Assembly: GCA_964565195.1 (NCBI GenBank)
Contig: CAZMCQ010000004.1
Span: 133-64,132 of the forward strand
Direction: 5' to 3'
Length of the DNA: 64,000 bases
Source: an uncultured Candidatus Saccharibacteria bacterium
Lineage (GTDB): Bacteria; Patescibacteriota; Doudnabacteria; UBA920; 2-01-FULL-46-14
Below, one piece after another: positions 37,152-59,409 of the stretch (its first letter is position 1; each line of letters opens with the position of its first letter). Position numbers and translations under genes: made by a program. The notes below the pieces were generated by a model. That model did no database searches, had not been told where the DNA came from, and saw nothing but the letters and a program-made list of their open reading frames with translations.

Positions 37152-38390
37152 TTGGCGACCATGAATTTTTTTGAAATCACAAAAAAGGACGAAAATTCGC
37201 CGGCCCGCGCCGCAATTTTACATACGGCCGCAGGCCGGGTGCACACGCCGGCTTTTTTGCCGATCGCCACGCGCGGGGGAGTCAAGGCCGTGACCATGGA
37301 GGAGGTAAAATTCTGGGGCGCGGAAATAATTTTAGCCAATACTTATCATCTTTGGCAGCGGCCCGGAGACAATCTCATCCGCAAGCAGGGCGGGCTCCAC
37401 AAATTCATTGGCTGGTCCGGCCCGATCCTCACGGATTCGGGCGGGTTTCAGGTATTTTCCTTGGGAGAGAAAAGACATGTCCCTCTTCCGAAAAACCCTC
37501 TCCTTGAGAGGGGGGGGTGGCCGGAGGCCGGGAGGGGTAGAGATGCCCATGGCCGCGTTCTGAAGATAAGTGCAAAAGGCGTTCTATTTCACTCAGACCT
37601 TGATGGCGCGACCCGTGAGCTCACTCCCGAGGATTCGCTCAATATTCAATCTAACCTGGGGTCTGACATTGCGCTTGTCCTGGATTATTTTCCCGCATAC
37701 CCGTTTACGAAAGAAGGGATGCGGAAAGCAGTGCAGTTGACTTTGCAATGGGCCGAACGCAGCGCCAGACATTTTGAGAAAATCCGCGCTGCGGGCGTGA
37801 ACCCCGCGCAGCGCCTGTTCGGCATCGTGCAGGGCGGCGATTTCGCAGATTTGCGTAAACTGTGCGCGGAGAAATTGCGGGCAATGGATTTTGCGGGCTA
37901 CGCGATTGGCGGCGTGGCGGTCGGGGAGCCGATCGATGCGATGTACCGCGCGGTGGAGATGACAGTCCCTCATCTTGAGGAAGACAAGCCGCGGCACCTT
38001 TTGGGCGTCGGCACGCCGGAGCAGCTCATCGGCGCGGTCGCTCGTGGCTGTGATCTCTTTGATTGTGTTTTGCCGACGCGCAACGCGCGGCATGGCACGC
38101 TGTTTATAAATAATAAAAACGAGGGCGGCTACTCGATCCTGAACATTGACAACGCCAGTTTCGCCGAAGACGGGACGCCCGTGGACAACACCTGCAACTG
38201 CTACCTCTGCCTGCGGCACACGCGGGCCTATCTGCGGCACTTGTTTGCCACGCGCGATCCGCTTGCGGTGCGCCTCGCAACCATGCACAATCTGCGCTTT
38301 TATCTGAATCTGATGGAAAAAATCCGTCGCGCGATCGAGTATGATACTATGAGCGAGCTGCTTGGTGGTTTCCGGCGGAGTATTGTATAA
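37152..38390 (+). CDS. tgt: Queuine tRNA-ribosyltransferase carrying an in-frame insertion of about 30 aa.
   Basis: DSGGFQVFSL, LLGVGTPE, CVLPTRNARHG, Zn site CNCYLC...H; inserted segment GEKRHVPLPKNPLLERGGWPEAGRGRDAHG. Confidence 0.9.
   Translation: MATMNFFEITKKDENSPARAAILHTAAGRVHTPAFLPIATRGGVKAVTMEEVKFWGAEIILANTYHLWQRPGDNLIRKQGGLHKFIGWSGPILTDSGGFQVFSLGEKRHVPLPKNPLLERGGWPEAGRGRDAHGRVLKISAKGVLFHSDLDGATRELTPEDSLNIQSNLGSDIALVLDYFPAYPFTKEGMRKAVQLTLQWAERSARHFEKIRAAGVNPAQRLFGIVQGGDFADLRKLCAEKLRAMDFAGYAIGGVAVGEPIDAMYRAVEMTVPHLEEDKPRHLLGVGTPEQLIGAVARGCDLFDCVLPTRNARHGTLFINNKNEGGYSILNIDNASFAEDGTPVDNTCNCYLCLRHTRAYLRHLFATRDPLAVRLATMHNLRFYLNLMEKIRRAIEYDTMSELLGGFRRSIV
37481..37540 (+). repeat. GC-rich palindromic element in frame in tgt.
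   Basis: ccctcttccgaaaaaccctctccttgagaggggggggtggccggaggccgggagggg. Confidence 0.65.
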
Positions 38391-38404
38391 TTTATACAAA
38401 CCAA

Positions 38405-39298
38405 ATGAAGAAACTTCTCCTGATAATTTGTCTTAGTTTTATCCTCATTTCTCCATTTTTCGCTCTCGCGGCCGAATCAGGGCTCGGCGACACTGGTTTT
38501 GAAACAGTTTGTAAGAAGGGGGGCGAACTCGCCTTAGGTGCCTGCATTGCCAACATCTATAAACTTTCCCTGGGTTTAGGCGCCGTGGTGGCGCTCTTCA
38601 TGACCATTCTGGCCGGCTACCGGTATATGAATGCGGCCGGCAACGCCGAGCAGGTGGAGAGCGCCAAGGAATCCTTTACCTACGCGATCACCGGCCTCAT
38701 CATCCTCTTCGTGGCCTATGCCCTGCTCTACACGATCAACCCAGACCTGGTGAAATTCCGCAAGGTCGGGGACATCGGCAAGCTGCCGGCGATAGTGTTT
38801 CAGGCGCCGGCTCCGCCTATCACGGGTCCAGCTATTGATTTGGCCAAACAGATCCAGGGTCTAGCCGCACGGATCACTTTGGCCATGGTGCATGCCTCCG
38901 GCAATTCCGACAACGCGACCGCGAGAAAGAATATTGACGATACGGCAGAGGGCCGGGAGGCTTTGCACAGCTGCTATGGTACAGCACCTTGCAAAAGTGT
39001 GGCTTTGGATGAAACCATGCTCGGCGCGATGATCGAACTCGCGAAAACTTATTCATTTTCTGTAAGCGAGATCGCCGGCGGCGCACACAGCGCCAATTCC
39101 GCTCATTATGCCGGTCGCGCTTTTGATGTGAATTATATAAATGGAACTCGTGTTAACGCGAGCCACCCTTCGCAGCAGGCGTTCAGAGATAAATGCCGGA
39201 CCTTGGGCGCGGTGCAATATCTGGGCCCGGGCGCTGCCGGACATTCGACCCATATCCACTGCGCCTGGGCAGCCGGCGGGACGGATATAGGAGATTAA
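38405..39298 (+). CDS. Fusion protein: TrbC/VirB2-like pilin N-terminal region plus peptidase M15 (VanY/D-Ala-D-Ala carboxypeptidase-like) domain.
   Basis: Signal peptide plus two TM helices (LGLGAVVALFMTILAGYRYM...ITGLIILFVAYALLYTINP); M15 motifs SAHYAGRAFDVNY and HSTHIHCAW. Confidence 0.55.
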   Translation: MKKLLLIICLSFILISPFFALAAESGLGDTGFETVCKKGGELALGACIANIYKLSLGLGAVVALFMTILAGYRYMNAAGNAEQVESAKESFTYAITGLIILFVAYALLYTINPDLVKFRKVGDIGKLPAIVFQAPAPPITGPAIDLAKQIQGLAARITLAMVHASGNSDNATARKNIDDTAEGREALHSCYGTAPCKSVALDETMLGAMIELAKTYSFSVSEIAGGAHSANSAHYAGRAFDVNYINGTRVNASHPSQQAFRDKCRTLGAVQYLGPGAAGHSTHIHCAWAAGGTDIGD

Positions 39299-39299
39299 T

Positions 39300-40625
39300 A
39301 TGGCTAGTATCAATAATCTGATGGACAAAATTGTTGCGCTGTGCAAACGGCGGGGTTTCGTTTTTCCCGGCTCGGAAATTTACGGCGGCCTGGCCGGGAC
39401 ATGGGATTATGGCCCTCTGGGGTCGCTTTTGAAAAAAAACATTAAAGATGAATGGTGGCGCGACACGGTTCAGTTAAGGGATGATATGGTGGGTCTGGAT
39501 GCCTCCATCATGATGAATCCCAGGGCTTGGGAAGCGTCAGGGCACGTTGAGGCATTTACCGATCCTTTGGTGGAATGCAAAGTCTGCCATGAAAGATTCA
39601 GGGCCGACAATGCAAGCGAAATCAAGCAGCACGAGAAAACCCATCAGGGCAGGGAGGTCAGCTGGACTGCACCTAGAAAATTTAATCTTTTGGTTAAAGC
39701 TTACCTCGGGATCATTGAAGGCGAGCAGTCAGAGGTTTATTTACGGGGCGAAATTACAAACGGCGTGAGCGTGAACTTTAAAAATGTTTTGAATTCAACT
39801 CGAGTCAAAGTTCCTTTTGGCATCGCGCAAATCGGAAAGGCGTTCAGAAACGAAATCACGCCGGGCAATTTTATGTTCCGCTCGCGCGAGTTCGAGCAAA
39901 TGGAGACCCAGTTTTATATCAAACCAGACGAAGGCCAAGGTCAAAAATGGTTTGCGTATTGGAAACAGAACCGAATGGATTGGTATGTGGGGATGGGCAT
40001 CAGGAAGGAAAATCTGCGCTTCAAGGATCACAAACCCGAGGAGCGTGCGCATTACGCGAGGGCCGCGACAGATCTCGAATACAACTCTCCGTTTGGCTGG
40101 GCGGAATTCATGGGGATTCACCACCGCGGTGACTGGGATTTAAAGCGGCACCAGGAATTTTCAAAAGTTGCTTTGCAATACAAGGATCCGGAGAGCGGCG
40201 AGGAATATTTACCGCATGATATTGAAACATCCGCCGGGGTGGACCGATCGCTGCTATTTTTTCTTATGGATGCCTATTCGGAAGAGAAAGAGAGGATTGT
40301 CTTGAAACTCCACCCGAAACTCGCACCCTATAAAGTTGCGGTTTTTCCGCTCCTCAAAAACAAACCCGAGCTTGTGAAACTCGCGCGTAAAATTTATGAC
40401 GACCTCCGCCCCGTCTTTCTGACGGCTTGGGACGACCGCGGCAACATCGGCAAACGTTATTTCTCGCAGGACGAGATCGGCACACCCTATTGCATCACCG
40501 TGGATTTTGACTCCTTGGAAAAAAATGATGTGACGGTGAGGGATCGGGATACAATGAAGCAAATTCGTCTCCCGATAATCCAATTAACTGATTACTTAAA
40601 TAAAAAATTAAATATCAAAATGTAA
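39300..40625 (+). CDS. glyQS: Glycine--tRNA ligase (alpha2-type class II).
   Basis: Class II motifs, FRNEITPGNFMFRSREFEQME, GIHHRGDWDL; 441 aa. Confidence 0.9.
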   Translation: MASINNLMDKIVALCKRRGFVFPGSEIYGGLAGTWDYGPLGSLLKKNIKDEWWRDTVQLRDDMVGLDASIMMNPRAWEASGHVEAFTDPLVECKVCHERFRADNASEIKQHEKTHQGREVSWTAPRKFNLLVKAYLGIIEGEQSEVYLRGEITNGVSVNFKNVLNSTRVKVPFGIAQIGKAFRNEITPGNFMFRSREFEQMETQFYIKPDEGQGQKWFAYWKQNRMDWYVGMGIRKENLRFKDHKPEERAHYARAATDLEYNSPFGWAEFMGIHHRGDWDLKRHQEFSKVALQYKDPESGEEYLPHDIETSAGVDRSLLFFLMDAYSEEKERIVLKLHPKLAPYKVAVFPLLKNKPELVKLARKIYDDLRPVFLTAWDDRGNIGKRYFSQDEIGTPYCITVDFDSLEKNDVTVRDRDTMKQIRLPIIQLTDYLNKKLNIKM

Positions 40626-40700
40626 AATGACAATGTAAAATCCAAAGTTTTTAATTTTTATTTGTCATTTTGATTTTTGATATTTTCATTTTAAATTACC
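40626..40700. repeat. Intergenic inverted-repeat element (family copy B).
   Basis: caaaatgtaaaatgacaatg ... tttgtcattttgatttttga. Confidence 0.6.
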
Positions 40701-40701: not shown

Positions 40702-41805
40702 GTGGATTATCTTCCGAGAGTCAAAAAACTCCAATCATATCTTCGAGAAAACGCGCTGGACGCGTTTCTTGTTCTCACGAAGGTCAATCGTCAATATCTT
40801 TCCGGCTTCACGGGCTCTGCCGGAGCGCTTTTAATTCGCAAAAACAAGGTCGGGCTTTATGTTGACGACCGCTATACGATCCGCGCGAGGCGAGAGAGTA
40901 AATTGCCGATCAAACCCCTCACCCGGCTTAGAGCCGACCTCTCCCGCAAGGGGCGAGGTAAGACGGGGATAGAAGACAAGATCATGCTGCGGGAATTTTT
41001 GAAGATTCAGAAAATAACGCGGCGACTCGAGGTAACTTCAAATGTTATCGAAAACATCCGCGCGGTTAAATCCAAAGAAGAGTTAAGACACATTGCCAAG
41101 GGCAGCCGGATCATCGACGAGATATTTCGCCGCGTTAAGCGATTGGCAAAGCCAGGCATCACCGAGGCCGCGGTATCTCTCGAGATCGGCAGATTGGCAA
41201 AAAAACTGGGCGGCGACGGGCTCGCGTTTGATCCGATCGTGGCTTTTGGGGCCAATGCTGCCTCGCCGCACCAATTTTCGGAAAATCGGAAAATCGGAAA
41301 AAATAACTTTCTCTTGCTCGATTTCGGCGTTCTGGTAAAAGGATATCATTCCGATTTCACAAGGACTTTGTTTATCGGAAAACCAAACCGAAAGCAGGAA
41401 AAGATTTATCATACTGTTCTCGAAGCGCAGCTTCGCGCCATTGAGGCTACCGCGACCCCTTCTCAACCTCCCCCTCGTGAGGGGGAGAAGAAAGAGGGGG
41501 TCATAGTTGTCAAAGCAAAAGATATCGATTCGGTAGCGCGCCGATTTATCGGCAATGCCGGCTTCGGCAAATATTTTACGCACAACACCGGCCACGGGGT
41601 GGGGTTGGAAATTCACGAGCTGCCCAATTTTTCGCCGGATTCGACGGACATTTTACAAAAAGATATGGTTGTCACAGTCGAACCTGGTATTTATCTGCCA
41701 CAATCCGGGGGAGTGAGGATTGAAGATATGGTCATCGTTGGAGAGAAGCCACGAGTGCTTTCGGAAATCCACAAGGATTTAAAGAGTATGGTTGTTGATG
41801 TATAA
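40702..41805 (+). CDS. pepP: Xaa-Pro aminopeptidase (M24B family) carrying two in-frame palindromic insertions.
   Basis: HNTGHGVGLEIHELP, metal ligands; creatinase-like N-domain. Confidence 0.85.
   Translation: MDYLPRVKKLQSYLRENALDAFLVLTKVNRQYLSGFTGSAGALLIRKNKVGLYVDDRYTIRARRESKLPIKPLTRLRADLSRKGRGKTGIEDKIMLREFLKIQKITRRLEVTSNVIENIRAVKSKEELRHIAKGSRIIDEIFRRVKRLAKPGITEAAVSLEIGRLAKKLGGDGLAFDPIVAFGANAASPHQFSENRKIGKNNFLLLDFGVLVKGYHSDFTRTLFIGKPNRKQEKIYHTVLEAQLRAIEATATPSQPPPREGEKKEGVIVVKAKDIDSVARRFIGNAGFGKYFTHNTGHGVGLEIHELPNFSPDSTDILQKDMVVTVEPGIYLPQSGGVRIEDMVIVGEKPRVLSEIHKDLKSMVVDV
40914..40966 (+). repeat. GC-rich palindromic element in frame in pepP (encodes ...DLSRKGRGKTG).
   Basis: cccctcacccggcttagagccgacctctcccgcaaggggcgagg shares cccctcaccc and ctctcccgcaagggg with the copies at 53324 and 58531. 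Confidence 0.7.
41467..41500 (+). repeat. GC-rich palindromic element in frame in pepP (encodes SQPPPREGEKKEG).
   Basis: Perfect palindrome CTCCCCCTC-GTG-AGGGGGAG. Confidence 0.7.
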
Positions 41806-41893
41806 TGAAAAATGTAAAGATCAAAAATCAAAATTACAGATTAAAATTTAAAATTTTGCATTGTCATTTTCCATTTTGATTTTTTATTTTTGA
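41806..41893. repeat. Intergenic inverted-repeat element (family copy C).
   Basis: aaaaatcaaaattacag ... gcattgtcattttccattttgatttttt. Confidence 0.55.
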
Positions 41894-45693: not shown

Positions 45694-46588
45694 CACCCAC
45701 AGCCATGTTAATTTTCAGGCTTTCAAAAACGACTATGACGATGTTATTCGTCGGTCATTGGGAAGTGGCGTTTGGCTGATCAATGTCGGCACGCAGTTTG
45801 AGACTTCGCGCCGCGCCGTGGAACTTGCGGAACAATACTCGGACGGCGTTTACGCGGCTGTGGCGCTCCACCCGATCCACCTTTTCGAGCACCACGTGGA
45901 TGAGGAGGAAACGAGCTTCAACGCGCGCGGCGAAGAGTTCAATCTGCAAAGCTACAAAGATCTAGTCCTGCGCTCAACCAAGGTGGTTGCCATCGGCGAG
46001 TTTGGCCTGGATTACTACCGGATGCCAGAGGGTGAGGATCAAGAGGGGGTGAAAAAAGTCCAAGAGGAGGCGGTGAAGCAGCATCTAATTTTAGCCAAGG
46101 CGGTTGATAGGCCGTTGATGTTGCATGTTCGCTCCTCGCAAGGAAGCCAAGATGCCTACGAAGATTTATTAAGAATTCTCGACCGCCAAGCAGGCAACCT
46201 CTCCCCCCACCCCTCCCCAGGCTTGGGGAGGGCGACCGACAGGCCGGGAGAGGTCGAATCATGGTACCGAGGAGTAATTCATAGTTTTACCGGCAGCCTT
46301 GAAACAGCACAAGAGTTTGTTAAGCGCGGTTTTTATATTGGTCTCAATGGCATCATCACCTTTGATAAAACTGGCCGGAGCGAGGAGGTTGTCAAAAACA
46401 CGCCGCTTGATATGATAGTTCTCGAGACTGACGCGCCCTACCTTACGCCCGCGCCGTACCGCGGCCAGCGCAACGAACCATCGTATGTAAAATACGTCGC
46501 CGACAAGATCGCCGCGATCAAGGGCATTGAGGTAGCCGAAGTCGAATTTGCCACTACGCGCAACGCGCGCCAACTGTTTCGAGTGTAA
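45683..46588 (+). CDS. tatD: TatD-family metal-dependent deoxyribonuclease carrying an in-frame palindromic insertion.
   Basis: MLIDTHSHVNF, ...GEFGLDYY..., HVRSS..., DAPYLTP. Confidence 0.85.
   Translation: MLIDTHSHVNFQAFKNDYDDVIRRSLGSGVWLINVGTQFETSRRAVELAEQYSDGVYAAVALHPIHLFEHHVDEEETSFNARGEEFNLQSYKDLVLRSTKVVAIGEFGLDYYRMPEGEDQEGVKKVQEEAVKQHLILAKAVDRPLMLHVRSSQGSQDAYEDLLRILDRQAGNLSPHPSPGLGRATDRPGEVESWYRGVIHSFTGSLETAQEFVKRGFYIGLNGIITFDKTGRSEEVVKNTPLDMIVLETDAPYLTPAPYRGQRNEPSYVKYVADKIAAIKGIEVAEVEFATTRNARQLFRV
46197..46253 (+). repeat. Nested GC-rich palindromic element in frame in tatD (encodes NLSPHPSPGLGRATDRPGEV).
   Basis: cctctcccc..ccacccctcccc-aggctt-ggggaggg...gggagagg. Confidence 0.7.
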
Positions 46589-46609
46589 AAAACCTAAACT
46601 TTATTTATT

Positions 46610-46641
46610 ACCAAAATTTACGCAATTGCATAAAATTTGGT
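46610..46641 (+). promoter_or_regulatory. 32-bp palindromic operator-like site (ACCAAAATTTACGCAATTGCATAAAATTTGGT) overlapping a TAGAAT -10 upstream of 46653.
   Basis: Dyad symmetry about GCAATTGC; a near-identical copy lies at 47341. Confidence 0.55.
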
Positions 46642-46652
46642 AGAATAGAACC

Positions 46653-47330
46653 ATGAGCTATATTAAGAGCTATATTAAGCTTGGCAACATCATCCGCCGT
46701 TCTTTGCCACAAGAGAAAGCCCCGCGATTTAGTCCGGAGCAGATCGAAAAAATCAAGACCGCGAGTGGCATCGCCCTGGTGATTATTGCGGCCGCCGGCG
46801 TGATTGCCGTTTCGGCCGTTGCTCCCAATATCTTTATTGCGATAGACAAACTATTTCTACGCAAACATCCCAACCGGCGCTTGTCACGAAAACAGCGCGA
46901 GGCCAAAGCGATTCGGGCATTTTATTACCTCAAAAAGCACAAATATATACGGATGAAGCGCACCAAAGAAGACTTTAAAATTTTTCTCACAAATTTAGGA
47001 GAAAAGAAGGTCAGACAACTCCAATTCGAACAGCTGCGCGTTCCAAAACCGGGACACTGGAACAGAAAATGGTGGCAAGTCGCGGCAGACATCCCCACGG
47101 AAGAATATAAATGGGCGGCGGACCTTTTGCGACAAAAATTGAAAGATATGAACTTCTTCCCACTCCAACGGACACTTTGGTTTTATCCTTATGATCCGAG
47201 AAAGGAAGTCGAATGGATAGTGCAAAATTATGGGATTGCGGACTTTGTAACCGTTATGGAGATAAACCGTCTGGATAAAGATGATGAGAGAAAGATGGAG
47301 AAGTTTTTTGGAAAGGAAAAAATCCTTTAA
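46653..47330 (+). CDS. Hypothetical protein with one TM helix, flanked by twin palindromic sites.
   Basis: ORF; TM segment IALVIIAAAGVIAVSAVAPNIFIAI. Confidence 0.55.
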   Translation: MSYIKSYIKLGNIIRRSLPQEKAPRFSPEQIEKIKTASGIALVIIAAAGVIAVSAVAPNIFIAIDKLFLRKHPNRRLSRKQREAKAIRAFYYLKKHKYIRMKRTKEDFKIFLTNLGEKKVRQLQFEQLRVPKPGHWNRKWWQVAADIPTEEYKWAADLLRQKLKDMNFFPLQRTLWFYPYDPRKEVEWIVQNYGIADFVTVMEINRLDKDDERKMEKFFGKEKIL

Positions 47331-48690: not shown

Positions 48691-51600
48691 ATGTATAGCC
48701 ACAAAAAGATTGAACCGAAGTGGCAGCGTTGGTGGCAGAAGCAGAAACTTTATGCCACGCCGAAGAAGCTGGGCCGGAAAAAGCAGTATGTTTTGGATAT
48801 GTTTCCATACCCTTCGGGCGCGGGGCTGCATGTCGGGCACCCCGAGGGCTATACCGCGACGGACATTTACTCACGCTATTTGCGGATGAACGGCTATAAT
48901 GTGCTGCATCCGATGGGCTGGGACGCGTTTGGGCTGCCGGCGGAAAACTATGCCATCAAAGAGGGAATTCACCCGGCCAAATCGACAGCCGCGAATATCA
49001 AACGCTTTCGCGAGCAGATAAAGATGCTCGGGCTTTCCTATGACTGGGACCGCGAGATAAACACTGCTGATCCTGACTACTATAAATGGACGCAGTGGCT
49101 GTTTTTGAAATTCTACGAGAAAGGCCTCGCGTACCGCAAAGAGGCCAGCGTGAACTGGTGTCCCGAGGACCAGACAGTGCTCGCCAATGAGCAGGTCATC
49201 AATGGCCACTGCGAGCGCTGCGGCACCGCAGTCGTGCAAAAACTTCTGCCACAATGGTTTTTGAAGATCACTGACTATGCCGACCGCCTTCTGGCAGGTT
49301 TGGACAAGATTGATTGGCCGGAGCCGATCAAGCTGATGCAGCGAAACTGGATCGGCCGCTCGGAAGGCGCGGAAATGGAGTTTGGAATCAAGAATCAAGA
49401 ATCAAGAATCAAGAATTTTGTCTTGCTACATGGATTTAATGGTAATCCCTCGGGTGTGTTTTTGCCGTGGGTTGCAAAAGAATTACGAAAAGCGGGATTC
49501 AAAGTTCAAATTCCGCAGTTGCCTAATCCTGCAAATCCGACTGAAGAAGAACAGGTTTGGCATGTGCTAAAAAATATTGAATTTGATGAAAATACAGTTT
49601 TGCTTGGTCATAGTCTTGGTGCAGTTGTCGCTATGAAAGTTCTTGAAAGATTAAATATAAAGATCGCGGGACTTGTTTTGGTGGGCGGTTTCGTTGAGCA
49701 TAATTTCAAAGATAGGCCGCGGCCTTTTGATAAAACTTTTTCCTGGAAGTTTGATTTTTCAAAGATTCGAAAAAAAGCAGGCTTTGTAAAAATTCTAAGT
49801 TCGGTGGATGATTATGCGGTTCCTATCGAACAAGGACGGATATTACAAGAGAAATTGCGAGGCGAATTGGTCGAAATCAAAGGCGAGAAGCCGCATTTTA
49901 CGAATACTGAAGAGCCAGTTGTTTTGGAAGCATTACTGCCGAAGATTAAGATCTTCACCACGCGCCCGGACACGATCTATGGCGCGACATATATGGTGCT
50001 GGCGCCGGAACACCCGCTCGTCGTTTCGCTCCTCGCGTCCACCCCCTCCTTTTCCTCCCCCCTCGAGGGGGAGGAGGGGTGGGGGGGAATTCAAAATCCA
50101 AAGGAAGTCAGAAAATACATTGATGAGGCAAGGAAGAAGACAGAGCTGCAGCGTACCGCGCTTGAGAAGGATAAGACTGGCGTTGAGCTGAAAGGGATCA
50201 AGGCGATCAATCCAGCGACTAAAGAAGAAATTCCGGTCTGGATCGCGGATTATGTCCTGATGGGCTATGGCACAGGCGCCATCATGGCCGTGCCGGCTCA
50301 CGACGAGCGGGATTTTGTTTTTGCAAAAAAATATAAGCTGCCGATTAGAAAGGTAATTATTCCACCGGAAATAGTTAGTGAACCAGTCCAGCCGCCCAGT
50401 CCTGGCGCTTGGGGGCATCTTGACGCGGATTTGGAAGCTGACGTGTGGATTGGAGACGGTAAGCTTGTGAATTCCGGAAAGTTTAACGGACAGGATTCGG
50501 AAAAGGCCAAATGGAAAATAACGGCTTTGGTAAACGGGGTTAAAAAGGTCCAGTACAAACTCCGCGATTGGTTGATAAGTCGCCAGCGGTACTGGGGGGC
50601 GCCGATTCCGATTGTTTATTGTGAGGACTGTGGAATACAGCCGGTTCCTGAAAAAGATCTGCCAGTGAAACTGCCGACAGACGTGGATTTCCGGCCGACT
50701 GGCGAGTCCCCGCTTGCGCGGTCAAAAAGTTTTCATGAAGTGAAATGCCCGAATTGCGGCAAAGCCGCGCGGCGCGATACGGATACAATGGATACATTTG
50801 TGGATTCCTCCTGGTACTATTTGCGTTTCACTGACCCGCACAACAAAAAAGAATTCGCCTCGAAAAAAGAGACAAGTAAATGGTGTCCGGTGGATGTGTA
50901 TGTCGGCGGCGCGGAGCACGCGGTGCTGCACCTGATGTACGCGCGGTTTTTCTGGAAGGCGCTCGCGGATATGAAGCTGGTCAACGGCTCAACCGCGGAT
51001 GAGCCGTTTCTGAAGCTGCGCAATCAGGGTCTGATTTTGGGCCCGGATGGCCAGAAAATGAGCAAATCACGAGGCAATGTGATAAATCCGGACGATGTCG
51101 TGGATGAATATGGCGCGGACTCAATGCGGATGTTCGAGATGTTTATGGGGCCCCTGGAGGACGCCAAGCCTTGGAGTACGCAGGGGATAAAAGGGGTGCG
51201 AAGATTTTTGGAGAAGGGATGGCGATTGTTCTCTGACGTCATTCCCGCGCAGGCGGGAATCCAGACTGGATCCCGGATCAAGTCCGGGATGACAGAAACA
51301 CAAAGACTCCTTCATAAAACCATTAAGAAAGTAGGCGAGGATATTAAATCTTTCAAATTTAACACCGCGGTTTCGGCAATGATGATATTGGTGAATGAAA
51401 TGACCCTTCGACAAGCTCAGGGTATAAATAAAAAAGATTGGGAGACATTTTTGAAACTCCTCGCCCCCTTTGCGCCGCACATGGCCGAGGAGTTATGGCA
51501 GAAATTGGGTCACAAGAAATCCGTTCACCTCGAGCCATGGCCGCAGTATGACGAAAAATTGGTTGAAGAGGAAGAGGTAAATATCGTCGTCCAGGTGAAT

Positions 51601-52427: not shown

Positions 52428-53665
52428 AGATATTTCTAGATTTTGACGGGGTTTTGCACGATACGCGTCGGATGATAGACCGCACCAACACCCTGCTTAA
52501 GAAATTTGGCGTAGACCCGCAGGTGTGGGCTGATTCCTGGGAAGCCATGAGCCAGCCGGATCATTATAAGGTCGGGCTTTACACCATTGAACAGCACGCG
52601 CAGCAATATGCCAAAATTCGTAAATTCAACACAAGAAAATTTGTCGAGGATTATTGGAAGTTTCACGACGGGATTAATTACCTGCACAAAGAGACGCGAG
52701 ATTTTATTAGGAGGGTCAACAAAATTAGCGAGCCGACCCTGCTTACGCATGGCGACCCCGAATTTCAGATGCGTAAGATCACCAGAAGCGGTACGTATAA
52801 ATTAGTCAAAAAGATTGTCGTCGTGCCGAGCTTGAAATCACGCAGCATTGGAAAATTATTGGACAAAAAAGCACTTAATGTGCTGATTGATGACAATCCT
52901 TTTGAAGTTGAGGAGATGAAGCGAAGTTTTCCCAAGGTTGTCGTCATCCACATTAGCCGTCAAATTTTGAGGCATTGGACGAAACCAGTGAGCGCAGATT
53001 TTTATGTGAGCAATCTCAAGCAAGCTCTGGTAATCCTCGAATTGCTGGACGAAACATTCACGAAAGATGCGAGCAAAGTTGTGCAGTATCTCAAAAAAGG
53101 CAAAGCCGTGGTTTATCCCACGGACACGGCTTATGGGCTGGGCGTGGATGCTTTTAATCCAAAAGCCGTGAGAAACCTTTACCGAATCAAAAATCAGAGC
53201 TTGAAAAAACCCGTGCATGTGATTGTGGACAGTGTGGCAATGGTGGAGAAGATCGCAGTACTAGATTCTATTGCTCGAAAACTGATGAAGAAATATTGGC
53301 CGGGCCCGTTGACCTTGGTGCTACCCCTCACCCCCACCCTCTCCCGCAAGGGGAGAGGGGGTTCATGGAAATTACTTTCCAGCGGGACGGGGACGATCGG
53401 CGTGCGAATGCCGGATAATAAGATTGCCTTGCAATTAGTTAGAAAACTTGGTCGGCCAATCACAACCACGTCCGCGAATCTACACGGCGGGCCGACGTCT
53501 TATTCCGCGATTGATTCGTTCAAACAATTTTTCCTCAAAAAGTACCAGCCGGATTTGTATTTGGACGCTGGGGTTTTGCCGAAACAAAAACCATCAACTA
53601 TCATCAAAATAGAACAAAATAAAATAAAAACTTTGCGAAAGGGGCCGATTCGTGCTTCGCCTTAG
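52424..53665 (+). CDS. Fusion protein: HAD-like hydrolase N-domain plus L-threonylcarbamoyladenylate synthase (YrdC/TsaC) C-domain, carrying an in-frame palindromic insertion.
   Basis: N-domain DFDGVLHD (HAD motif I) and LIDDNP (motif IV); C-domain KGKAVVYPTDTAYGLGVDAFNPKAVRNLYRIKNQSLKKPVHV. The track ORF begins at 52391. Confidence 0.7.
   Translation: MKIFLDFDGVLHDTRRMIDRTNTLLKKFGVDPQVWADSWEAMSQPDHYKVGLYTIEQHAQQYAKIRKFNTRKFVEDYWKFHDGINYLHKETRDFIRRVNKISEPTLLTHGDPEFQMRKITRSGTYKLVKKIVVVPSLKSRSIGKLLDKKALNVLIDDNPFEVEEMKRSFPKVVVIHISRQILRHWTKPVSADFYVSNLKQALVILELLDETFTKDASKVVQYLKKGKAVVYPTDTAYGLGVDAFNPKAVRNLYRIKNQSLKKPVHVIVDSVAMVEKIAVLDSIARKLMKKYWPGPLTLVLPLTPTLSRKGRGGSWKLLSSGTGTIGVRMPDNKIALQLVRKLGRPITTTSANLHGGPTSYSAIDSFKQFFLKKYQPDLYLDAGVLPKQKPSTIIKIEQNKIKTLRKGPIRASP
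53324..53361 (+). repeat. GC-rich palindromic element in frame in the HAD-YrdC gene (encodes PLTPTLSRKGRGGS).
   Basis: cccctcacccccaccctctcccgcaaggggagaggg; its 21-mer core matches the parB copy. Confidence 0.75.
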
Positions 53666-56130: not shown

Positions 56131-56133
56131 TTT

Positions 56134-56904
56134 ATGTCTATTTTTCAAGCTGTCGTTCTCGGAGTGGTGCAGGGGATTACCGAGTTTTTGCCGATCTCGT
56201 CGCAGGCGCACCTGCTGCTCGTGCCGTATTTTTTGAAGTGGAATTATCAGGGGCTTGGGTTTGACATCGCTCTGCATTGGGGAACTCTGCTTGGCGTGCT
56301 CGCGTTTTTTGGAAAAGATTACTGGAACATTCTCACAGGCAAGATGGGTTCGAAAATGTTTTGGTATCTCGTACTTGGCTCCATCCCGGCCGCGGCAGCG
56401 GGATTTCTTTTTGAGAAGCAGGCCGAAACAATTTTTCGAAGTCCGTTGATCACAGTTTTCACGCTCGCGGGTTTTGGGTTTCTGCTCTGGCTTGCGGATC
56501 GGAACCCCTCCCTCAATCCCTCCCCTCGTCAGGAGAGTGAGGTGCTGAATTGGAAAAAAGTCCTCGGCATTGGCCTCGCGCAGGCCATCGCCATCATCCC
56601 TGGCGTGTCGCGTTCCGGCGCGACCATCACAGCCGGTCTTTTTTCCGGGCTCTCCCGCGAAGCCGCGGCGCGTTTTTCGTTTCTGCTCTCCGGCCCGATC
56701 ATTTTCGGAGCGGGACTCGTCGCCTCGCGCGATTTAGTTTCCATAACCGCCCCACTCATCGCCGGCTTTCTGGCCGCCGCCATCGCCGGCTTTCTGGCCA
56801 TAGAGTTTCTTCTGCGATACGTGAGTAAAAATAATTTTAATGTCTTTGTTTGGTATAGATTAGTATTAGCCGTTGCGGTTTTGCTGACCATTCTCTATCG
56901 TTGA
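56134..56904 (+). CDS. uppP: Undecaprenyl-diphosphatase (BacA/UppP) carrying an in-frame palindromic insertion.
   Basis: GITEFLPISSQAHLLL, SRSGATIT. Confidence 0.9.
   Translation: MSIFQAVVLGVVQGITEFLPISSQAHLLLVPYFLKWNYQGLGFDIALHWGTLLGVLAFFGKDYWNILTGKMGSKMFWYLVLGSIPAAAAGFLFEKQAETIFRSPLITVFTLAGFGFLLWLADRNPSLNPSPRQESEVLNWKKVLGIGLAQAIAIIPGVSRSGATITAGLFSGLSREAAARFSFLLSGPIIFGAGLVASRDLVSITAPLIAGFLAAAIAGFLAIEFLLRYVSKNNFNVFVWYRLVLAVAVLLTILYR
56504..56543 (+). repeat. Degenerate GC-rich palindromic element in frame in uppP (encodes NPSLNPSPRQESEV).
   Basis: cccctccctcaatccctcccctcgtcaggagagtgagg. Confidence 0.55.
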
Positions 56905-56962
56905 GATGTTCCTGAAAATAGAATATAATAGTCCCAGTATTTTGTGTTTAGAATGATATTAT

Positions 56963-57049
56963 GCCGCCGTGGCGGAACTGGCAGACGCACGGGACTCAAA
57001 ATCCCGCGGTAGCAATACCATATCGGTTCGACTCCGATCGGCGGCACCA
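56963..57049 (+). tRNA. tRNA-Leu (anticodon CAA), type II with a long variable arm and encoded CCA.
   Basis: Acceptor GCCGCCG/CGGCGGC, anticodon stem CGGGA/TCCCG with loop CTCAAAA, T-arm CGGTTCGACTCCG, ends ...GCACCA. Confidence 0.85.
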
Positions 57050-57082
57050 GAAGATAGTAAAAATGAAGGGAGGTGATAAATT

Positions 57083-57481
57083 GTGCCGACAGTAAATTAT
57101 TTGGGAGTGTTGATCGCGGCTATCGCCAGCATGGTGGTGGCCGGAATTTGGTTCACAGGCATTTTCTCCAAGCCCTGGAAGAGAGAGACAGGCAAGAGTG
57201 AAGAAGAGCTCAAAAAGGGAACAAAAACCGGACTCATAGTTTCCTTCATCCTGGCCTTGGTGATGGCTTATGCCTTAGGCGTTGTCATGAAGTTTGCCAA
57301 TGCGGATACGGCGGGAGAAGTACTGCCAATCGCCTTTCTGGTCTGGCTCGGGTTTGTGATTGCCACCAGCGGCCAGGACTACGTGACCGCCCTGCGTTCC
57401 AGAAAACTTTTTTTCATCAACAACTTCTATCAGTTGGTGAGTTTGGTGGTTATGGGTCTGATTTTGCTTCGTTGGGGTTGA
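57083..57481 (+). CDS. Small membrane protein (DUF1761-like), GTG start after a GGGAGGTG RBS.
   Basis: Four hydrophobic helices. Confidence 0.5.
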   Translation: MPTVNYLGVLIAAIASMVVAGIWFTGIFSKPWKRETGKSEEELKKGTKTGLIVSFILALVMAYALGVVMKFANADTAGEVLPIAFLVWLGFVIATSGQDYVTALRSRKLFFINNFYQLVSLVVMGLILLRWG

Positions 57482-57499
57482 TTCCTTCTTGCCGCTTAG

Positions 57500-57961
57500 A
57501 TGAATTTTATAAAAAGTTTTAGCCTCACTTCTTTAGCGGTGCTCCTGGGGCTGCTGGTTGCGATCGCGATGATCGAACTTGATTTAGTCTTCGGTCTAAA
57601 AAATTTCCAAAGCGAAATGCTGGCAAAGCTCGGTTGGACTTTTTTGGCGCTGGGCGCAGCCTTGCGTTTCTGGGCAACCCATCTCTTTTACCAAAAGCAA
57701 ATGCGGGTTATTGCCACTCGGCCGCAAGCGCAGCTTCTCACAACGGGGCCTTATAAATATTCCCGGAATCCTCTGTATCTGGGATTGATTTTGATTTTTG
57801 CCGGGGCAGCGCTCTTGGCCGGTTCAGTGAGCGCCCTGTTGCTGACTTTGGCCATCTTCATTGTTTTAAGTTTCTGGATCAGGGTTGAAGAGCGGCAGCT
57901 GGCCGAGGCGTTTGGCGAGCAATACGCAAAGTTTCAAAGCCAAATCCGCCGTTGGCTTTAG
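57500..57961 (+). CDS. Isoprenylcysteine carboxyl methyltransferase (ICMT/PEMT) family membrane methyltransferase.
   Basis: TTGPYKYSRNPLYLGLILIFAGAALL, C-terminal EE...L motif. Confidence 0.7.
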   Translation: MNFIKSFSLTSLAVLLGLLVAIAMIELDLVFGLKNFQSEMLAKLGWTFLALGAALRFWATHLFYQKQMRVIATRPQAQLLTTGPYKYSRNPLYLGLILIFAGAALLAGSVSALLLTLAIFIVLSFWIRVEERQLAEAFGEQYAKFQSQIRRWL

Positions 57962-58021
57962 CTGGACAACCTTTACACGATCGTATAACACTTGTCGCGG
58001 CGGATTTTGAGGTTGCGGGAC

Positions 58022-58062
58022 TCGCTCTAAAGAGCAGTCCCGTCCTGTTTTATTTTCTGCTA
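58022..58062 (+). terminator. Intrinsic terminator after the ICMT gene, followed by TATAAT (58061-58066) for the next gene.
   Basis: GGGACTCGCTC-TAAA-GAGCAGTCCC followed by GTCCTGTTTTATTTT. Confidence 0.6.
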
Positions 58063-58066
58063 TAAT

Positions 58067-58486
58067 TTGTGCATGGAATTACAGGTTGGCGTGAAGGCGC
58101 TCTTGCGAAAGAAAGGTGGTAAATATTTGCTGGTGCGAAGATCTCCAGAGAAATACCCGGAGGTTGGTGCCCGCTGGGACATTGTTGGCGGCAGGATTGA
58201 TCCCGGCACAACCCTGCTTGAAAATTTGCGCCGCGAAATCAAGGAAGAAACGCATTTGGAATTAAGATCTACACCGAAACTTATCGCTGCGCAGGATATT
58301 CTACGCGTTCCCGGGCGTCACGTGGTACGATTAACTTATATTGCCGAAATTGAAGGCGAGCCAAAACTCGATCGTGATCATATGGAATTTGGCTGGTTTA
58401 CGATGGATCAACTGAAAAATTTGGAAAATTTAGATATTTATTTTAAGGAATTGCTGGATTCCGGCTTGCTGGCCGGAATGACATAG
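58067..58486 (+). CDS. NUDIX hydrolase (TTG start).
   Basis: Nudix box GGRIDPGTTLLENLRREIKEETHLEL. Confidence 0.8.
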   Translation: MCMELQVGVKALLRKKGGKYLLVRRSPEKYPEVGARWDIVGGRIDPGTTLLENLRREIKEETHLELRSTPKLIAAQDILRVPGRHVVRLTYIAEIEGEPKLDRDHMEFGWFTMDQLKNLENLDIYFKELLDSGLLAGMT

Positions 58487-58491
58487 AAGCC

Positions 58492-59409
58492 ATGGACGAT
58501 ACGTTTAAATTGGGGAACTTCGAGGAGGAGACCCCCTCACCCTCCCCTCTCCCGCAAGGGGAGAGGAGTATGATAAAACACCCGACCGTGGAGTCGGATG
58601 CGCAGGTTAGGTTCCGTTCGCCGCGCGACGGTTCGCCGCTTCTGGAGATTGAACTGGACAAGATTATTCCCAACGAATTTCAGCCGCGGCGCATTTTCAA
58701 CGAAGAAAAATTGCAGGAACTGGCGGACTCCATCGTGGTGCACGGCATCATTCAGCCGCTGGTTGTGCTGGCGCGGACTGACGGCACTTATGAAATCCTG
58801 GTCGGCGAGCGGCGCTACCGCGCCGCGAAGATCGCGGGTTTATCCAGCGTTCCGGCCTTTGTAAGAGAAGGGCTGTCCGCACAGGCCAAGCTCGAGATTT
58901 CCCTTATTGAAAATATCCAGCGCGCGGATCTCAATCCCATCGAAGAGGCCAAGGCCTACCAGCAGCTTTCGGTGGAGTTTGGACTCACGCAAATGCAGAT
59001 TGCAAAGCGCGTCGGCAAAAACCACTCGACAGTGGCCAACCTCATGCGTTTATTAAATTTGCCGGCAGAGATCCAGAAGGCGCTTGTCTCCGAGGAAATT
59101 TCCGAAGGGCAGGCGCGGCCGCTCCTGACCTTGCGCGACCGCGAAGAGATGCTCGCCATGTTCAAAATTGTCGTTAGGGATAAGATGAAAGTGCGGGACA
59201 TTGAAAATAAAGTTCGCGAAATCGTGAACCGGAAGATAAGAGTCCGCGAGATGTTTATACCTGACCCGTTTATTGAATCGCTGGAAAATCAGCTTCGCGA
59301 CAAACTCGGCACACGCGTGGAGGTGAGCAAAAAGGCGAAAGGCGGGCAGATTACGATCCAGTTTTATTCGGACGATGAGCTAAAAGGAATCATTGAAAAA
59401 TTAACCTAA
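58492..59409 (+). CDS. parB: ParB/Spo0J-family chromosome partition protein carrying an N-terminal in-frame palindromic insertion.
   Basis: GIIQPLVVL...ILVGERRYRAAKIAGLSSVPAFV (ParB box), HTH, C-terminal dimerisation region. Confidence 0.9.
   Translation: MDDTFKLGNFEEETPSPSPLPQGERSMIKHPTVESDAQVRFRSPRDGSPLLEIELDKIIPNEFQPRRIFNEEKLQELADSIVVHGIIQPLVVLARTDGTYEILVGERRYRAAKIAGLSSVPAFVREGLSAQAKLEISLIENIQRADLNPIEEAKAYQQLSVEFGLTQMQIAKRVGKNHSTVANLMRLLNLPAEIQKALVSEEISEGQARPLLTLRDREEMLAMFKIVVRDKMKVRDIENKVREIVNRKIRVREMFIPDPFIESLENQLRDKLGTRVEVSKKAKGGQITIQFYSDDELKGIIEKLT
58531..58567 (+). repeat. GC-rich palindromic element in frame near the parB N-terminus (encodes TPSPSPLPQGERS).
   Basis: ccccctcaccctcccctctcccgcaaggggagagg. 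Confidence 0.75.

What the first reader, a model, noticed from the sequence alone, without database searches (positions are those of the whole stretch)
37481..58567. Family of GC-rich palindromic elements inserted in frame into at least eight conserved housekeeping genes (RPE-like)
Short (35-60 nt), strongly GC-rich nested palindromes built from CCCCTC.../...GAGGGG arms, often with the core CCTCTCCCGCAAGGGGAGAGG, interrupt conserved regions of tgt (37481-37540), pepP (40914-40966 and 41467-41500), tatD (46197-46253), leuS (50040-50087), the HAD-YrdC gene (53324-53361), uppP (56504-56543) and parB (58531-58567). Every copy keeps the reading frame and adds a Pro/Ser/Gly/Arg-rich loop of 10-25 aa to the host protein. 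The same core is read in different frames in different genes: LSRKGRG in pepP and the YrdC-like gene, PLPQGERS in parB. So the conserved unit is the DNA, not a peptide. The copies in the YrdC-like gene and in parB share an essentially identical 35-nt stretch, and pepP copy 1 shares both ends with them. Related copies lie intergenically (13246-13272), in giant protein A (27620-27653, PPERRGGG), possibly in the kinase (about 14366-14390, EPPPPRRGG), and in the PNPase C-terminal tail (about 36790-36890, NLSRRALL...RPRGGRR). This matches the behaviour of Rickettsia palindromic elements, selfish palindromes that spread into ORFs while preserving frame. I am not aware of it being described for this kind of genome. 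Eight hits within 21 kb of essential genes is a remarkable density.
Basis: seen in the sequence. Interest (0 to 1): 0.85.

Follow-up and report, generated by a model that had tools for sequence, protein, structure and literature searches.

The report
BoxC-type palindromes inside essential CPR genes
Short GC-rich palindromic repeats, nearly identical to the long-known but unexplained "BoxC/triplex-motif" repeat of E. coli, sit in frame inside essential genes of an uncultured Doudnabacteria (CPR) bacterium, where they add floppy loops to the proteins.

Summary
Seven GC-rich palindromes with a pyrimidine arm followed by a purine arm lie inside tgt, pepP (two), tatD, leuS, the yrdC-like gene and the parB N-terminal tail. 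All ORFs stay open. Shuffled sequence gives about 0.1 such hairpins. The uppP copy is degenerate. The giant-protein copy is weak. The kinase, PNPase and intergenic 13246 "copies" are not supported.

The genome is a Candidatus Doudnabacteria MAG (Patescibacteria). The inserts in leuS, tatD, tgt and pepP site 2 are missing from the closest orthologues. Those orthologues carry their own similar palindromes, at other sites or in the same loops. So these are lineage-specific DNA insertions, not ancestral peptides.

The main correction concerns identity. The canonical copies are not a new family. They fit the published BoxC/PIT/TMECO intrastrand-triplex motif and match the E. coli copy at 33 of 35 bases. 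In E. coli K-12 MG1655 that repeat is reported as always intergenic.

In-frame palindromes are already known (RPE, intragenic REP). What appears new is a BoxC-type repeat at high density inside essential CPR genes. How it spreads is unknown. I found no transposase, no target-site duplication and no REP-type end tags.

The parts
37481..37540 (+). Nested GC-rich palindrome in tgt (inner hairpin 37496-37512, outer arms CCCTCTTCC/GGGAGGGG). Encodes VPLPKNPLLERGGWPEAGRGR.
   Evidence: Sequence. Absent from the 19 closest TGTs, and the site is an insertion hot spot. The AF2 segment 98-131 has pLDDT below 50. nhmmer E = 0.5.
40914..40966 (+). TMECO-like element in pepP with a 13-nt spacer that forms its own mini-hairpin. 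It lies in the interdomain linker (KPLTRLRADLSRKGRGKTG).
   Evidence: E = 2e-4. Net +2 aa only. Relatives carry related elements at the same site.
41467..41500 (+). Hairpin CTCCCCCTC/GAGGGGGAG followed by a 3' G-rich third block, in pepP (PPPREGEKKEGV).
   Evidence: Absent in the closest orthologue P0122; P0129 has a longer related insert at the same site. Predicted coil with pLDDT 59-64.
46197..46254 (.). Nested palindrome in tatD that matches the TMECO pattern on both strands (NLSPHPSPGLGRATDRPGEV).
   Evidence: -17.6 kcal/mol, z = -2.7. Absent from the L020 TatD. Lies in the stretch that does not align to PDB TatD proteins.
50040..50087 (-). 48-nt nested palindrome in the leuS editing-domain region. 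It matches the strict TMECO pattern on the minus strand and adds exactly 16 codons.
   Evidence: Absent from all 21 orthologues aligned, including P0002, the closest at 74-76% identity.
53323..53361 (+). Canonical BoxC/TMECO copy in the yrdC/tsaC-like gene (PLTPTLSRKGRGG).
   Evidence: E = 1e-8. 33/35 identical to the E. coli nrdA-nrdB spacer copy. About +7 aa after PGPLTLVL relative to PDB TsaC.
56504..56543 (+). Degenerate three-block remnant in uppP (NPSLNPSPRQESEV).
   Evidence: Weak fold, nhmmer E = 4.2, about +3 aa relative to L020.
58531..58568 (+). Canonical BoxC/TMECO copy in the N-terminal tail or linker of parB (TPSPSPLPQGERS). It would lie in the 5' leader if the NCBI start at 58570 is correct.
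   Evidence: (E = 1e-7).
27620..27653 (-). Possible decayed copy in the 991-aa ORF ('giant protein A').
   Evidence: nhmmer E = 1.6. 6-bp stem, z = -1.1.
51238..51297 (+). A different GC-rich double-hairpin element, in frame in leuS (VIPAQAGIQTGSRIKSGMTE). Not part of the BoxC family.
   Evidence: (-19.3 kcal/mol, z = -4.7). Orthologous copy in L020 with two compensatory pair changes. No E. coli match.

Best explanation
The elements are copies of a dispersed, structure-defined DNA repeat of the BoxC/PIT/TMECO class. Each is a C-rich block, a second C-rich block and a complementary G-rich block, often extended into a full nested palindrome.

In this Doudnabacteria lineage the repeat has entered coding sequence many times. 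Copies persist only under three conditions:
- The inserted length keeps the reading frame.
- The composition is nearly free of stop codons, so the element reads as Pro/Ser/Leu/Thr followed by Gly/Arg/Glu.
- The site is a surface loop, an interdomain linker or a terminal tail that tolerates 7-25 extra, largely disordered residues.

On this reading they are selfish or neutral passengers that are transcribed and translated along with the host gene. The same permissive loops are hit or refreshed repeatedly in different lineages.

**Shown:** family identity, excess over chance, lineage-specific presence and absence, hot-spot loops, and predicted disorder at the two modelled insertion sites (tgt, pepP site 2).

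**Inferred:** the means of spread. My best guess is copy-and-paste or gene conversion through hairpin or triplex-prone single-stranded DNA during replication or repair, using a trans-acting or host function not encoded in this window.
For: **Family identity**
- The strict TMECO pattern (at most 1 mismatch per block) hits yrdC, parB, tatD and leuS. Allowing a longer spacer adds pepP1. There were 0 hits in 200 shuffles.
- The 41-nt yrdC query matches 5012 of 5426 E. coli genomes at up to 94.7% identity over 38 nt. The yrdC copy is 33/35 identical to the nrdA-nrdB spacer copy, including the GCAAG loop.
- The motif definition is from PMC4666352.

**Not ancestral**
- leuS, tatD, tgt and pepP2 inserts are absent from the closest orthologues at 65-76% identity.

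**Independent gains from a shared pool**
- L020 uppP carries two hairpins at a site that is empty in the window. One of them (TCCTCCCCCTCGATGGGGGAGGA) is close to the window's leuS hairpin.
- The L020 yrdC loop holds a different three-block variant.

**Clade-wide pattern**
- Lineage-specific inserts in PepP and TGT are dominated by P, S, G and R. They show pyrimidine-to-purine polarity at 14:2 and 12:3.
- In L265, L266 and L267, 12 of 13 hairpins lie inside called genes.
- None or one such hairpin was found in about 250 kb of more distant loci.

**Tolerated in loops**
- AF2 gives low-confidence coil at the tgt and pepP2 inserts.
- PDB sequence alignments show gaps at the yrdC and tatD inserts.

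**Decay happens**
- The uppP copy is degenerate.

**Real sequence**
- Two assemblies plus a Logan contig agree.
Against: - No mobilising enzyme was found. The window has no transposase or RAYT. There is no target-site duplication and no GTAG/CGTC tag.
- Holder et al. found no link to mobile elements. Cultured phages almost never carry the element.
- No presence/absence polymorphism was seen between the two near-identical assemblies, so ongoing mobility is not demonstrated.
- Elements at shared hot-spot sites look 'fresh' (intact stems) in lineages whose proteins are only about 60% identical. The unrelated leuS element shows compensatory changes. Either observation could mean selection on structure rather than neutrality.
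- Translation of the inserts is assumed, not shown.
Confidence: 0.65

Rival explanations
1. The elements are selected for a function at the nucleic-acid level. Candidates include hairpins or pyrimidine-motif RNA/DNA triplexes that pause translation or transcription at domain boundaries, stabilise mRNA, mark recombination or repair sites, or act as uptake or recognition signals. On this reading the encoded peptide is a by-product.
For: - The 35-nt sequence, including its loop, is strongly conserved between a CPR bacterium and E. coli.
- Stems are intact at shared sites in proteins only about 60% identical.
- There are two compensatory changes in the orthologous second-family leuS element.
- pepP1 sits exactly at an interdomain linker.
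- The triplex forms in vitro on single strands (PMC4666352).
Against: - Sites and hosts are unrelated, and close orthologues lack the inserts.
- In E. coli no promoter or terminator activity, no in vivo triplex and no functional class of neighbouring genes was found.
- The uppP copy is decaying.
- Orientation is mixed.
Confidence: 0.15
2. The palindromes arise locally and repeatedly. Replication slippage, template switching or quasi-palindrome correction in C/G-rich tracts would generate them, with no copying from other loci. Their similarity would then reflect a common mutational attractor.
For: - No transposase and no target-site duplication were found.
- The elements vary widely in length and architecture.
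- The same loops carry different variants in different lineages.
Against: - Copies at unlinked loci are nearly identical over 31-35 nt (yrdC, parB, pepP1) and match E. coli copies, loop included.
- The surrounding genes are 45-50% GC with no C/G tracts to seed such events.
- The leuS insertion is a clean 48-nt addition.
Confidence: 0.08
3. The segments are protein features selected as flexible Pro/Ser/Gly/Arg linkers or binding loops. Some may be ancestral, and the DNA palindromy would be secondary.
For: - pepP1 and uppP are not net insertions, and they occupy linkers that are present in all orthologues.
- The parB copy lies in a natural N-terminal linker.
Against: - The same DNA is read in different frames and gives different peptides.
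- The inserts are absent from the closest orthologues.
- The DNA, not the peptide, matches a non-coding E. coli repeat.
- The predicted loops have low confidence.
Confidence: 0.05
4. The palindromes are assembly or chimera artefacts.
For: The source is a MAG, and GC-rich hairpins are hard to sequence.
Against: - The elements are identical in a second assembly (GCA_016198105.1) and in an independent Logan contig.
- Analogous in-frame elements occur in many unrelated assemblies of related genomes.
Confidence: 0.01

Closest known systems
BoxC / PIT element / TMECO intrastrand-triplex motif (Bergler and Bachellier in the 1990s; Hoyne and Maher 2000; Holder et al. 2015, PMC4666352)
   Same: - Same three-block architecture, CCCTCNCCC-N-CCCTCNCCC-N3-6-GGGNGAGGG (shown here as the reverse complement of the published pattern).
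- 33/35 identity to the E. coli copy, including the loop.
- Dispersed and multi-copy, on either strand, with some copies in the 'palindromic' double form.
- No associated transposase.
   Different: - In E. coli K-12 MG1655 all 23 copies are intergenic. Here essentially all copies are inside ORFs and in frame.
- The host is a CPR bacterium, whereas TMECO was reported in 262 proteobacterial genomes.
- Density is about 1 per 8-9 kb in this window, against about 1 per 200 kb in K-12.
- Several copies (tgt, pepP2, leuS) are divergent variants.
Rickettsia palindromic elements (RPE; Ogata et al. 2000, 2002; reviewed in PMC10969869)
   Same: Palindromic repeats inserted in frame into unrelated housekeeping genes, tolerated in surface regions and lineage-specific.
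   Different: - RPEs are about 100-150 bp and each family encodes a conserved peptide in one frame. They are confined to Rickettsia and its relatives.
- These elements are 34-60 nt and strongly GC-rich, are read in several frames, and belong to a different sequence family.
Intragenic REPs (GTAG- and CGTC-tagged REP superfamilies; Di Nocera et al. 2013, PMC3733652) and REP/RAYT systems
   Same: 20-40-bp GC-rich palindromes, mostly intergenic, but found in frame in known proteins in several species. Single units or dimers encode 20-30 aa.
   Different: - There is no GTAG or CGTC terminal tag and no RAYT in the window.
- The third C-rich block and triplex potential are not REP features.
Optional G+C-rich clusters of yeast mitochondrial DNA, for example in var1 (from my own knowledge, not checked here)
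   Same: Short GC-rich palindromic clusters, present or absent in frame in a protein gene of an AT-rich compact genome, and spread by gene conversion.
   Different: Organellar and eukaryotic, with an unrelated sequence.

Membership tests
BoxC / PIT / TMECO | Sequence pattern CCCTCNCCC N3-6 GGGNGAGGG N3 GGGNGAGGG (9-nt stems, at most one mismatch) | tested here: met
   A regex with at most 1 mismatch per block and an inter-block loop of 1-4 nt hits yrdC (+), parB (+, 2-nt loop), tatD (+) and leuS (-). There were 0 hits in 200 shuffles. pepP1 fits only with a 13-nt spacer. tgt, pepP2 and uppP do not fit strictly.
BoxC / PIT / TMECO | Sequence similarity to the E. coli consensus | tested here: met
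   blastn with the 41-nt yrdC query gives 94.7% identity over 38 nt in 5012 of 5426 E. coli genomes. The yrdC copy is 33/35 identical to the nrdA-nrdB spacer copy. An nhmmer model that includes the E. coli copy recovers five window copies at E <= 2e-4.
BoxC / PIT / TMECO | Intergenic location (all 23 copies in E. coli MG1655) | tested here: not met
   All good copies lie inside ORFs. This is a descriptive property in E. coli rather than a structural definition. In-frame copies also occur in metagenome contigs L078, L113, L128 and L116.
BoxC / PIT / TMECO | Forms an intrastrand triplex as a single strand in vitro | not testable with these tools
   Only hairpin folding could be computed. By inspection, block 1 (CCCTCACCC) aligns in parallel with GGGAGAGGG for 8 of 9 triads.
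Rickettsia palindromic elements (RPE) | Palindromic repeat inserted in frame in unrelated ORFs | tested here: met
Rickettsia palindromic elements (RPE) | Length of about 100-150 bp, with each family encoding a conserved peptide | tested here: not met
   The elements are 34-60 nt. The same core is read in different frames and gives different peptides.
Rickettsia palindromic elements (RPE) | Sequence homology to RPE-1 through RPE-10 | not tested
   No RPE sequences were available in the tools. Rfam gave only two tRNAs in the window.
REP / RAYT (GTAG or CGTC REPs) | Conserved GTAG or CGTC tetranucleotide at one end of the palindrome | tested here: not met
   No consistent tag. Only isolated occurrences, one per element at varying positions.
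REP / RAYT (GTAG or CGTC REPs) | Cognate Y1 (RAYT) transposase gene in the genome | tested here: inconclusive
   None in the 64-kb window or the 5 kb beyond it.
MITE | Terminal inverted repeats plus a target-site duplication | tested here: not met
   The whole element is a palindrome. The best flanking direct repeats are 0-4 nt even with 3 nt of slack, which is chance level.

The most novel reading that the evidence does not exclude
BoxC/TMECO-type triplex-forming palindromes may be a pan-bacterial class of element, spread or maintained by a conserved, structure-specific host process. In Doudnabacteria and related CPR lineages, intergenic space is minimal, so they would have colonised coding sequence wholesale. 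That would make them a major source of the lineage-specific loops in essential CPR proteins.

The stems stay intact at shared hot-spot sites. This could mean that the structure itself, possibly a pyrimidine-motif RNA triplex or hairpin in the mRNA, is maintained by selection or by continual gene conversion.
Probability: 0.2. Interest if true: 0.8.

Novelty: new member of a known kind. Interest (0 to 1): 0.58.

Why it matters
BoxC/PIT/TMECO repeats have been known in E. coli since the 1990s, and no function or means of spread has been accepted for them.

- **A natural experiment.** Near-identical copies sit in frame inside essential genes of a CPR bacterium. There they must be transcribed. If the genes are functional they must also be translated. 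This argues against promoter or terminator roles for these copies. It also gives a setting in which structure-preserving and neutral evolution can be told apart.
- **A source of CPR protein insertions.** Many of the lineage-specific Pro/Ser/Gly/Arg-rich insertions in Doudnabacteria housekeeping proteins appear to come from repeat DNA. This matters for annotation, alignment, phylogenomics and structure prediction in these lineages.
- **Cross-phylum conservation.** About 95% identity between phyla for a 35-nt element with no known function is itself unexplained.

Tried and rejected
- **Rfam.** At gathering thresholds only two tRNAs were found; no family covers the elements.
- **Transposase search.** Pfam and NCBIfam scans of window ORFs and precomputed gene lists found no transposase, RAYT or IS200-like gene.
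- **End signatures.** The search for target-site duplications and GTAG/CGTC tags was negative.
- **Contig junction (withdrawn).** I first thought the window was a concatenation of two contigs joined at about 24739. This was wrong. The window is a second, longer assembly of the same population, and the NCBI contig simply starts there.
- **Genic versus intergenic in metagenomes.** I tried to classify metagenome and IMG/VR hits by whether a long ORF spans them. This is unreliable above about 55% GC because spurious ORFs are common, so only the low-GC contigs were used.
- **IMG/VR hits.** More than 120 hits suggested a link to phages, but only 5 of 50,697 cultured phage genomes carry anything similar, so I do not claim one.
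- **Exact-protein look-ups.** Look-ups with the ORF-derived LeuRS and the long ParB failed. For ParB the NCBI start at 58570 differs from the long ORF. For LeuRS the cause was not resolved, since a 100%-identical, same-length protein (P0001) is in the protein database.
- **Fold z-scores.** They are only moderate (-1.4 to -2.7) because shuffles of C-block/G-block compositions also pair. The hairpin census against shuffled windows is the more informative control.
- **Literature.** Searches for a CPR or Parcubacteria description found nothing relevant.

Full report
**1. What is in the sequence**

At the stated coordinates there are short segments (34-60 nt) of 62-76% G+C. The genes around them are 45-53% G+C. 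Each segment has one or two C/T-rich blocks followed by complementary G/A-rich blocks.

NCBIfam confirms the hosts: Tgt, an Xaa-Pro peptidase, a TatD-family nuclease, LeuRS, a TsaC/YrdC-family protein, UppP and ParB. All ORFs remain open through the elements.

Excess over chance was tested in four ways:
- The 21-nt core CCTCTCCCGCAAGGGGAGAGG occurs three times with at most 1 mismatch. It occurs 0 times in 100 shuffles.
- A census of hairpins with an all-pyrimidine 5' arm finds 6 in the window. The yrdC copy, seen, makes 7. Shuffles give a mean of 0.13. No hairpins have the purine arm first.
- All seven hairpins lie between 37.5 and 58.6 kb.
- An nhmmer profile built from the clear copies finds no further members. 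It ranks the candidates as follows:

| Candidate | nhmmer E-value |
|---|---|
| yrdC | 1e-8 |
| parB | 1e-7 |
| leuS (minus strand) | 3e-5 |
| tatD | 6e-5 |
| pepP1 | 2e-4 |
| pepP2 | 0.06 |
| tgt | 0.5 |
| giant protein A | 1.6 |
| uppP | 4.2 |
| PNPase | 5.2 |

The kinase and PNPase segments do not fold better than shuffles (z = +0.4 and +0.3). In PNPase, 'NLSRRAL' lies inside the PNPase profile match, which reaches residue 697. I therefore reject both, along with the 5-bp intergenic stem at 13246.

**2. Source and reality of the sequence**

The LeuRS, PepP and TGT proteins are 100% identical to proteins of a 'Candidatus Doudnabacteria bacterium' MAG, which belongs to the Patescibacteria (CPR).

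The window overlaps contig JACQJL010000002.1 of GCA_016198105.1. It differs at 4 of 21,104 and 5 of 15,431 bases, and none of these are in an element. The window is therefore a second assembly of the same population. An independent Logan contig from SRR12113383 encodes the identical PepP with both inserts. An assembly artefact is excluded for practical purposes.

**3. Insertions, not ancestral features**

The closest relative available is contig L020, whose LeuRS is 74-76% identical. It is syntenic over MetRS, TatD, LeuRS, an NTP-transferase, YrdC, an MFS transporter, SHMT and further genes up to BacA.

| Site | Result |
|---|---|
| leuS | The 48-nt element adds exactly 16 codons. It is absent from L020 and from all 21 LeuRS orthologues aligned. 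|
| tatD | Absent from the L020 TatD. It falls in the only stretch that does not align to PDB TatD proteins. |
| tgt | Unique among the 20 closest TGTs. |
| pepP2 | Absent from the closest PepP (67% identical). A more distant orthologue (P0129) has a longer related insert at the same point. |
| yrdC | About 7 residues are added after PGPLTLVL relative to solved TsaC/Sua5 structures. L020 carries a different three-block variant in the same loop (CCCCCTCTT-AAT-CTCCCCCTTCC-CTCT-GGAAGGGGGAG). |
| uppP | The window copy is decayed and adds only about 3 residues. L020 UppP has two intact hairpins at another site that is empty in the window. One of them, TCCTCCCCCTCGATGGGGGAGGA, closely resembles the window's leuS hairpin. 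|
| pepP1 | Adds only about 2 residues. It occupies the interdomain linker, where many orthologues carry related elements. |
| parB | NCBI starts the gene after the element. A 71%-identical orthologue shares the upstream peptide (MDDTFKLGNF against MTDEIFKLGRF) and has its own long Pro/Ser...Gly insert at the same place. The long ORF is therefore probably real, and the element lies in the N-terminal linker. |

**4. The phenomenon is clade-wide**

In alignments of 120 PepP and 120 TGT homologues, I collected internal lineage-specific inserts of at least 8 aa. There are 33 in PepP and 31 in TGT. They are dominated by P, R, G and S. They also show the polarity expected for a C-arm followed by a G-arm: strong pyrimidine-to-purine against the reverse is 14:2 in PepP, 12:3 in TGT and 20:6 in LeuRS.

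DNA from three further Doudnabacteria-like loci (L265, L266, L267) shows 13 hairpins of this type. Twelve lie inside called genes, including three in one TGT. L267 PepP holds full TMECO palindromes. A few of those near called gene starts may really lie in 5' leaders.

About 250 kb of more distant CPR, Ignavibacteria and Bacteroidota loci contain none or one.

Certain loops are hit repeatedly: the TGT site after FSLGEKR, the PepP linker, the PepP site after helix 230-248, and the YrdC loop.

**5. Where the inserts sit in the proteins**

AlphaFold2 models were built from the orthologue alignments.
- **TGT** (mean pLDDT 72). Residues 98-131, which contain the insert, have pLDDT below 50 and no secondary structure.
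- **PepP** (mean pLDDT 89.8). The pepP2 insert is coil between helices 230-248 and 272-291, with pLDDT 59-64 and below 50 at residues 263-265. The pepP1 region is modelled as a short helix plus loop at moderate to high confidence. This fits its being a replacement of the native linker rather than an addition.

**6. What the element is**

A blastn search with a 41-nt query based on the yrdC copy hits 5012 of 5426 complete E. coli genomes. The median is 3 places per genome, and the best hits are 94.7% identical over 38 nt. The listed top hits (15 records) have no annotated feature under the match, which is consistent with an intergenic location.

The copy in the nrdA-nrdB spacer reads CCCTCACCCTAACCCTCTCCCGCAAGGGGAGAGGG. 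The window's yrdC copy reads CCCTCACCCCCACCCTCTCCCGCAAGGGGAGAGGG. That is 33 of 35 identical, including the GCAAG loop.

This is the BoxC / PIT / TMECO element. Holder et al. 2015 (PMC4666352) report the following:
- The motif is CCCTCNCCC N3-6 GGGNGAGGG N3 GGGNGAGGG.
- There are 3610 copies in 262 proteobacterial genomes.
- E. coli MG1655 has 23 copies, all intergenic.
- The single strand forms a stable triplex in vitro, but no triplex was detected in vivo.
- The element has no promoter or terminator activity and no link to mobile elements. It is associated with local genomic instability.

Applying that pattern on either strand, with at most 1 mismatch per block, gives yrdC (+), parB (+), tatD (+) and leuS (-). 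Allowing a longer spacer adds pepP1 and a second, minus-strand match in tatD. There were 0 hits in 200 shuffles. The tgt, pepP2 and uppP copies are divergent or decayed relatives.

The exact pattern is very widespread. In low-GC contigs it is mostly intergenic: 3 of 32 hits are spanned by a long ORF. Clear in-frame cases do exist:
- a glycosyltransferase on a Hainich groundwater 0.1-um-fraction contig (L078);
- an LmbE-like protein (L113);
- RpiB (L128);
- a DsbD linker (L116).

These four host identities are my reading of the translated ORFs, not family-search results.

Cultured phage genomes almost never carry the element (5 of 50,697 records).

**7. Mechanism**

*Shown:*
- The elements are dispersed copies of a known repeat family.
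- They were gained, or replaced, after the lineages diverged.
- They sit in permissive positions. The tgt and pepP2 inserts are predicted to be disordered loops. The others lie in a linker, an N-terminal tail or stretches that do not align to solved structures.
- They are read in different frames.
- 5 of 8 have no stop codon in at least three of the six frames, and tatD and leuS have none in any frame.
- At least one copy, uppP, is decaying.

*Inferred:*
- Insertions occur at random, and those that break the frame or the fold are purged.
- Spread is by copy-and-paste or gene conversion involving hairpin or triplex-prone single-stranded DNA.

I found no mobilising enzyme in the window. There is no target-site duplication and no REP-type tag.

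Two observations keep a structural-function rival alive. First, the stems remain intact at shared hot-spot sites in proteins that are only about 60% identical. Second, an unrelated second palindrome family in leuS (51238-51297, z = -4.7) is orthologous in L020 and differs by two compensatory pair changes.

**8. Comparison and novelty**

- **By sequence and architecture,** the canonical copies are members of BoxC/TMECO. They fail only the descriptive 'intergenic' property.
- **By behaviour,** they resemble RPEs and intragenic REPs. In-frame REPs in replication and repair genes were reported by Di Nocera et al. 2013 (PMC3733652). RPEs are reviewed in PMC10969869. The window elements are not members of either family: their length, frame usage and lack of tags all differ.
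- **Literature.** I found no description of such elements in CPR or Patescibacteria.

**9. Verdict**

This is a real and well-supported phenomenon. It is a new host and a new context for a known repeat family, and a known type of behaviour. It is of moderate interest.

The unexplained points are the cross-phylum conservation of the 35-nt sequence, the unusually high genic density, and the apparent maintenance of the stems.

Noticed in passing
window 33949-34052, 40597-40698, 41816-41891 (also 46586-46665): A separate AT-rich family of intergenic inverted repeats built on ATCAAAATGYAAAATGACA. It gives 5 matches with at most 3 mismatches, against 0.03 expected, arranged as inverted pairs in three spacers. 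In this window the AT-rich palindromes occupy spacers and the GC-rich ones occupy genes.
   Followed up: partly
window 51238-51297 (leuS): A second, unrelated GC-rich double-hairpin element lies in frame (GTCATTCCCGCGCAGGCGGGAATCCAG...ATCCCGGATCAAGTCCGGGATGAC, encoding VIPAQAGIQ..GSRIKSGMT). Fold z = -4.7. It is conserved at the same site in L020 with two compensatory stem changes. A copy sits at a different LeuRS site in L001. There is no E. coli match.
   Followed up: partly
window 49400-49940 approx. (leuS residues ~243-415): LeuRS carries an inserted alpha/beta-hydrolase domain of about 170 aa (PF06821 Ser_hydrolase). Many CPR LeuRS share it. Relatives additionally carry a NUDIX domain insert, and one Falkowbacteria LeuRS (P0087) has a PF01797 Y1-transposase hit.
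   Followed up: no
window 51403-51423 (leuS): A small palindrome, ACCCTTCGACAAGCTCAGGGT (TLRQAQG), gives two extra residues relative to the orthologues. It resembles another widespread repeat-derived peptide motif.
   Followed up: no
window 58492-58570 (parB start): The NCBI annotation starts parB at 58570. The peptide MDDTFKLGNF upstream of the element is conserved in a 71%-identical orthologue, which suggests the true start is 58492.
   Followed up: yes
window ~24739: Contig JACQJL010000002.1 of GCA_016198105.1 begins here, in an AT-rich spacer. The window runs straight through, so it comes from a longer assembly of the same population. The overlaps differ at 4 and 5 positions, one shared, so 8 distinct positions over about 34 kb.
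   Followed up: yes
window ~34088-34249 (-) and locus L265 3486-7196: Between clpB and rpsO the window has only a 53-aa integrase fragment next to an AT-rich palindrome. The syntenic locus L265 has a full integrase there, plus a bAvd and reverse-transcriptase pair that looks like a diversity-generating retroelement.
   Followed up: no
locus L265 12757-12792 and 13300-13336: Another repeat, ACTTCGCTCGGGCCACCCCTCCTT-loop-AAGGAGGGG, occurs twice near called gene starts. Its 3' arm contains a Shine-Dalgarno-like AAGGAGG.
   Followed up: no
window 49384-49422 (leuS): A short tandem repeat, (AATCAAG)n, encodes GIKNQESRIKN just before the hydrolase-domain insert.
   Followed up: no
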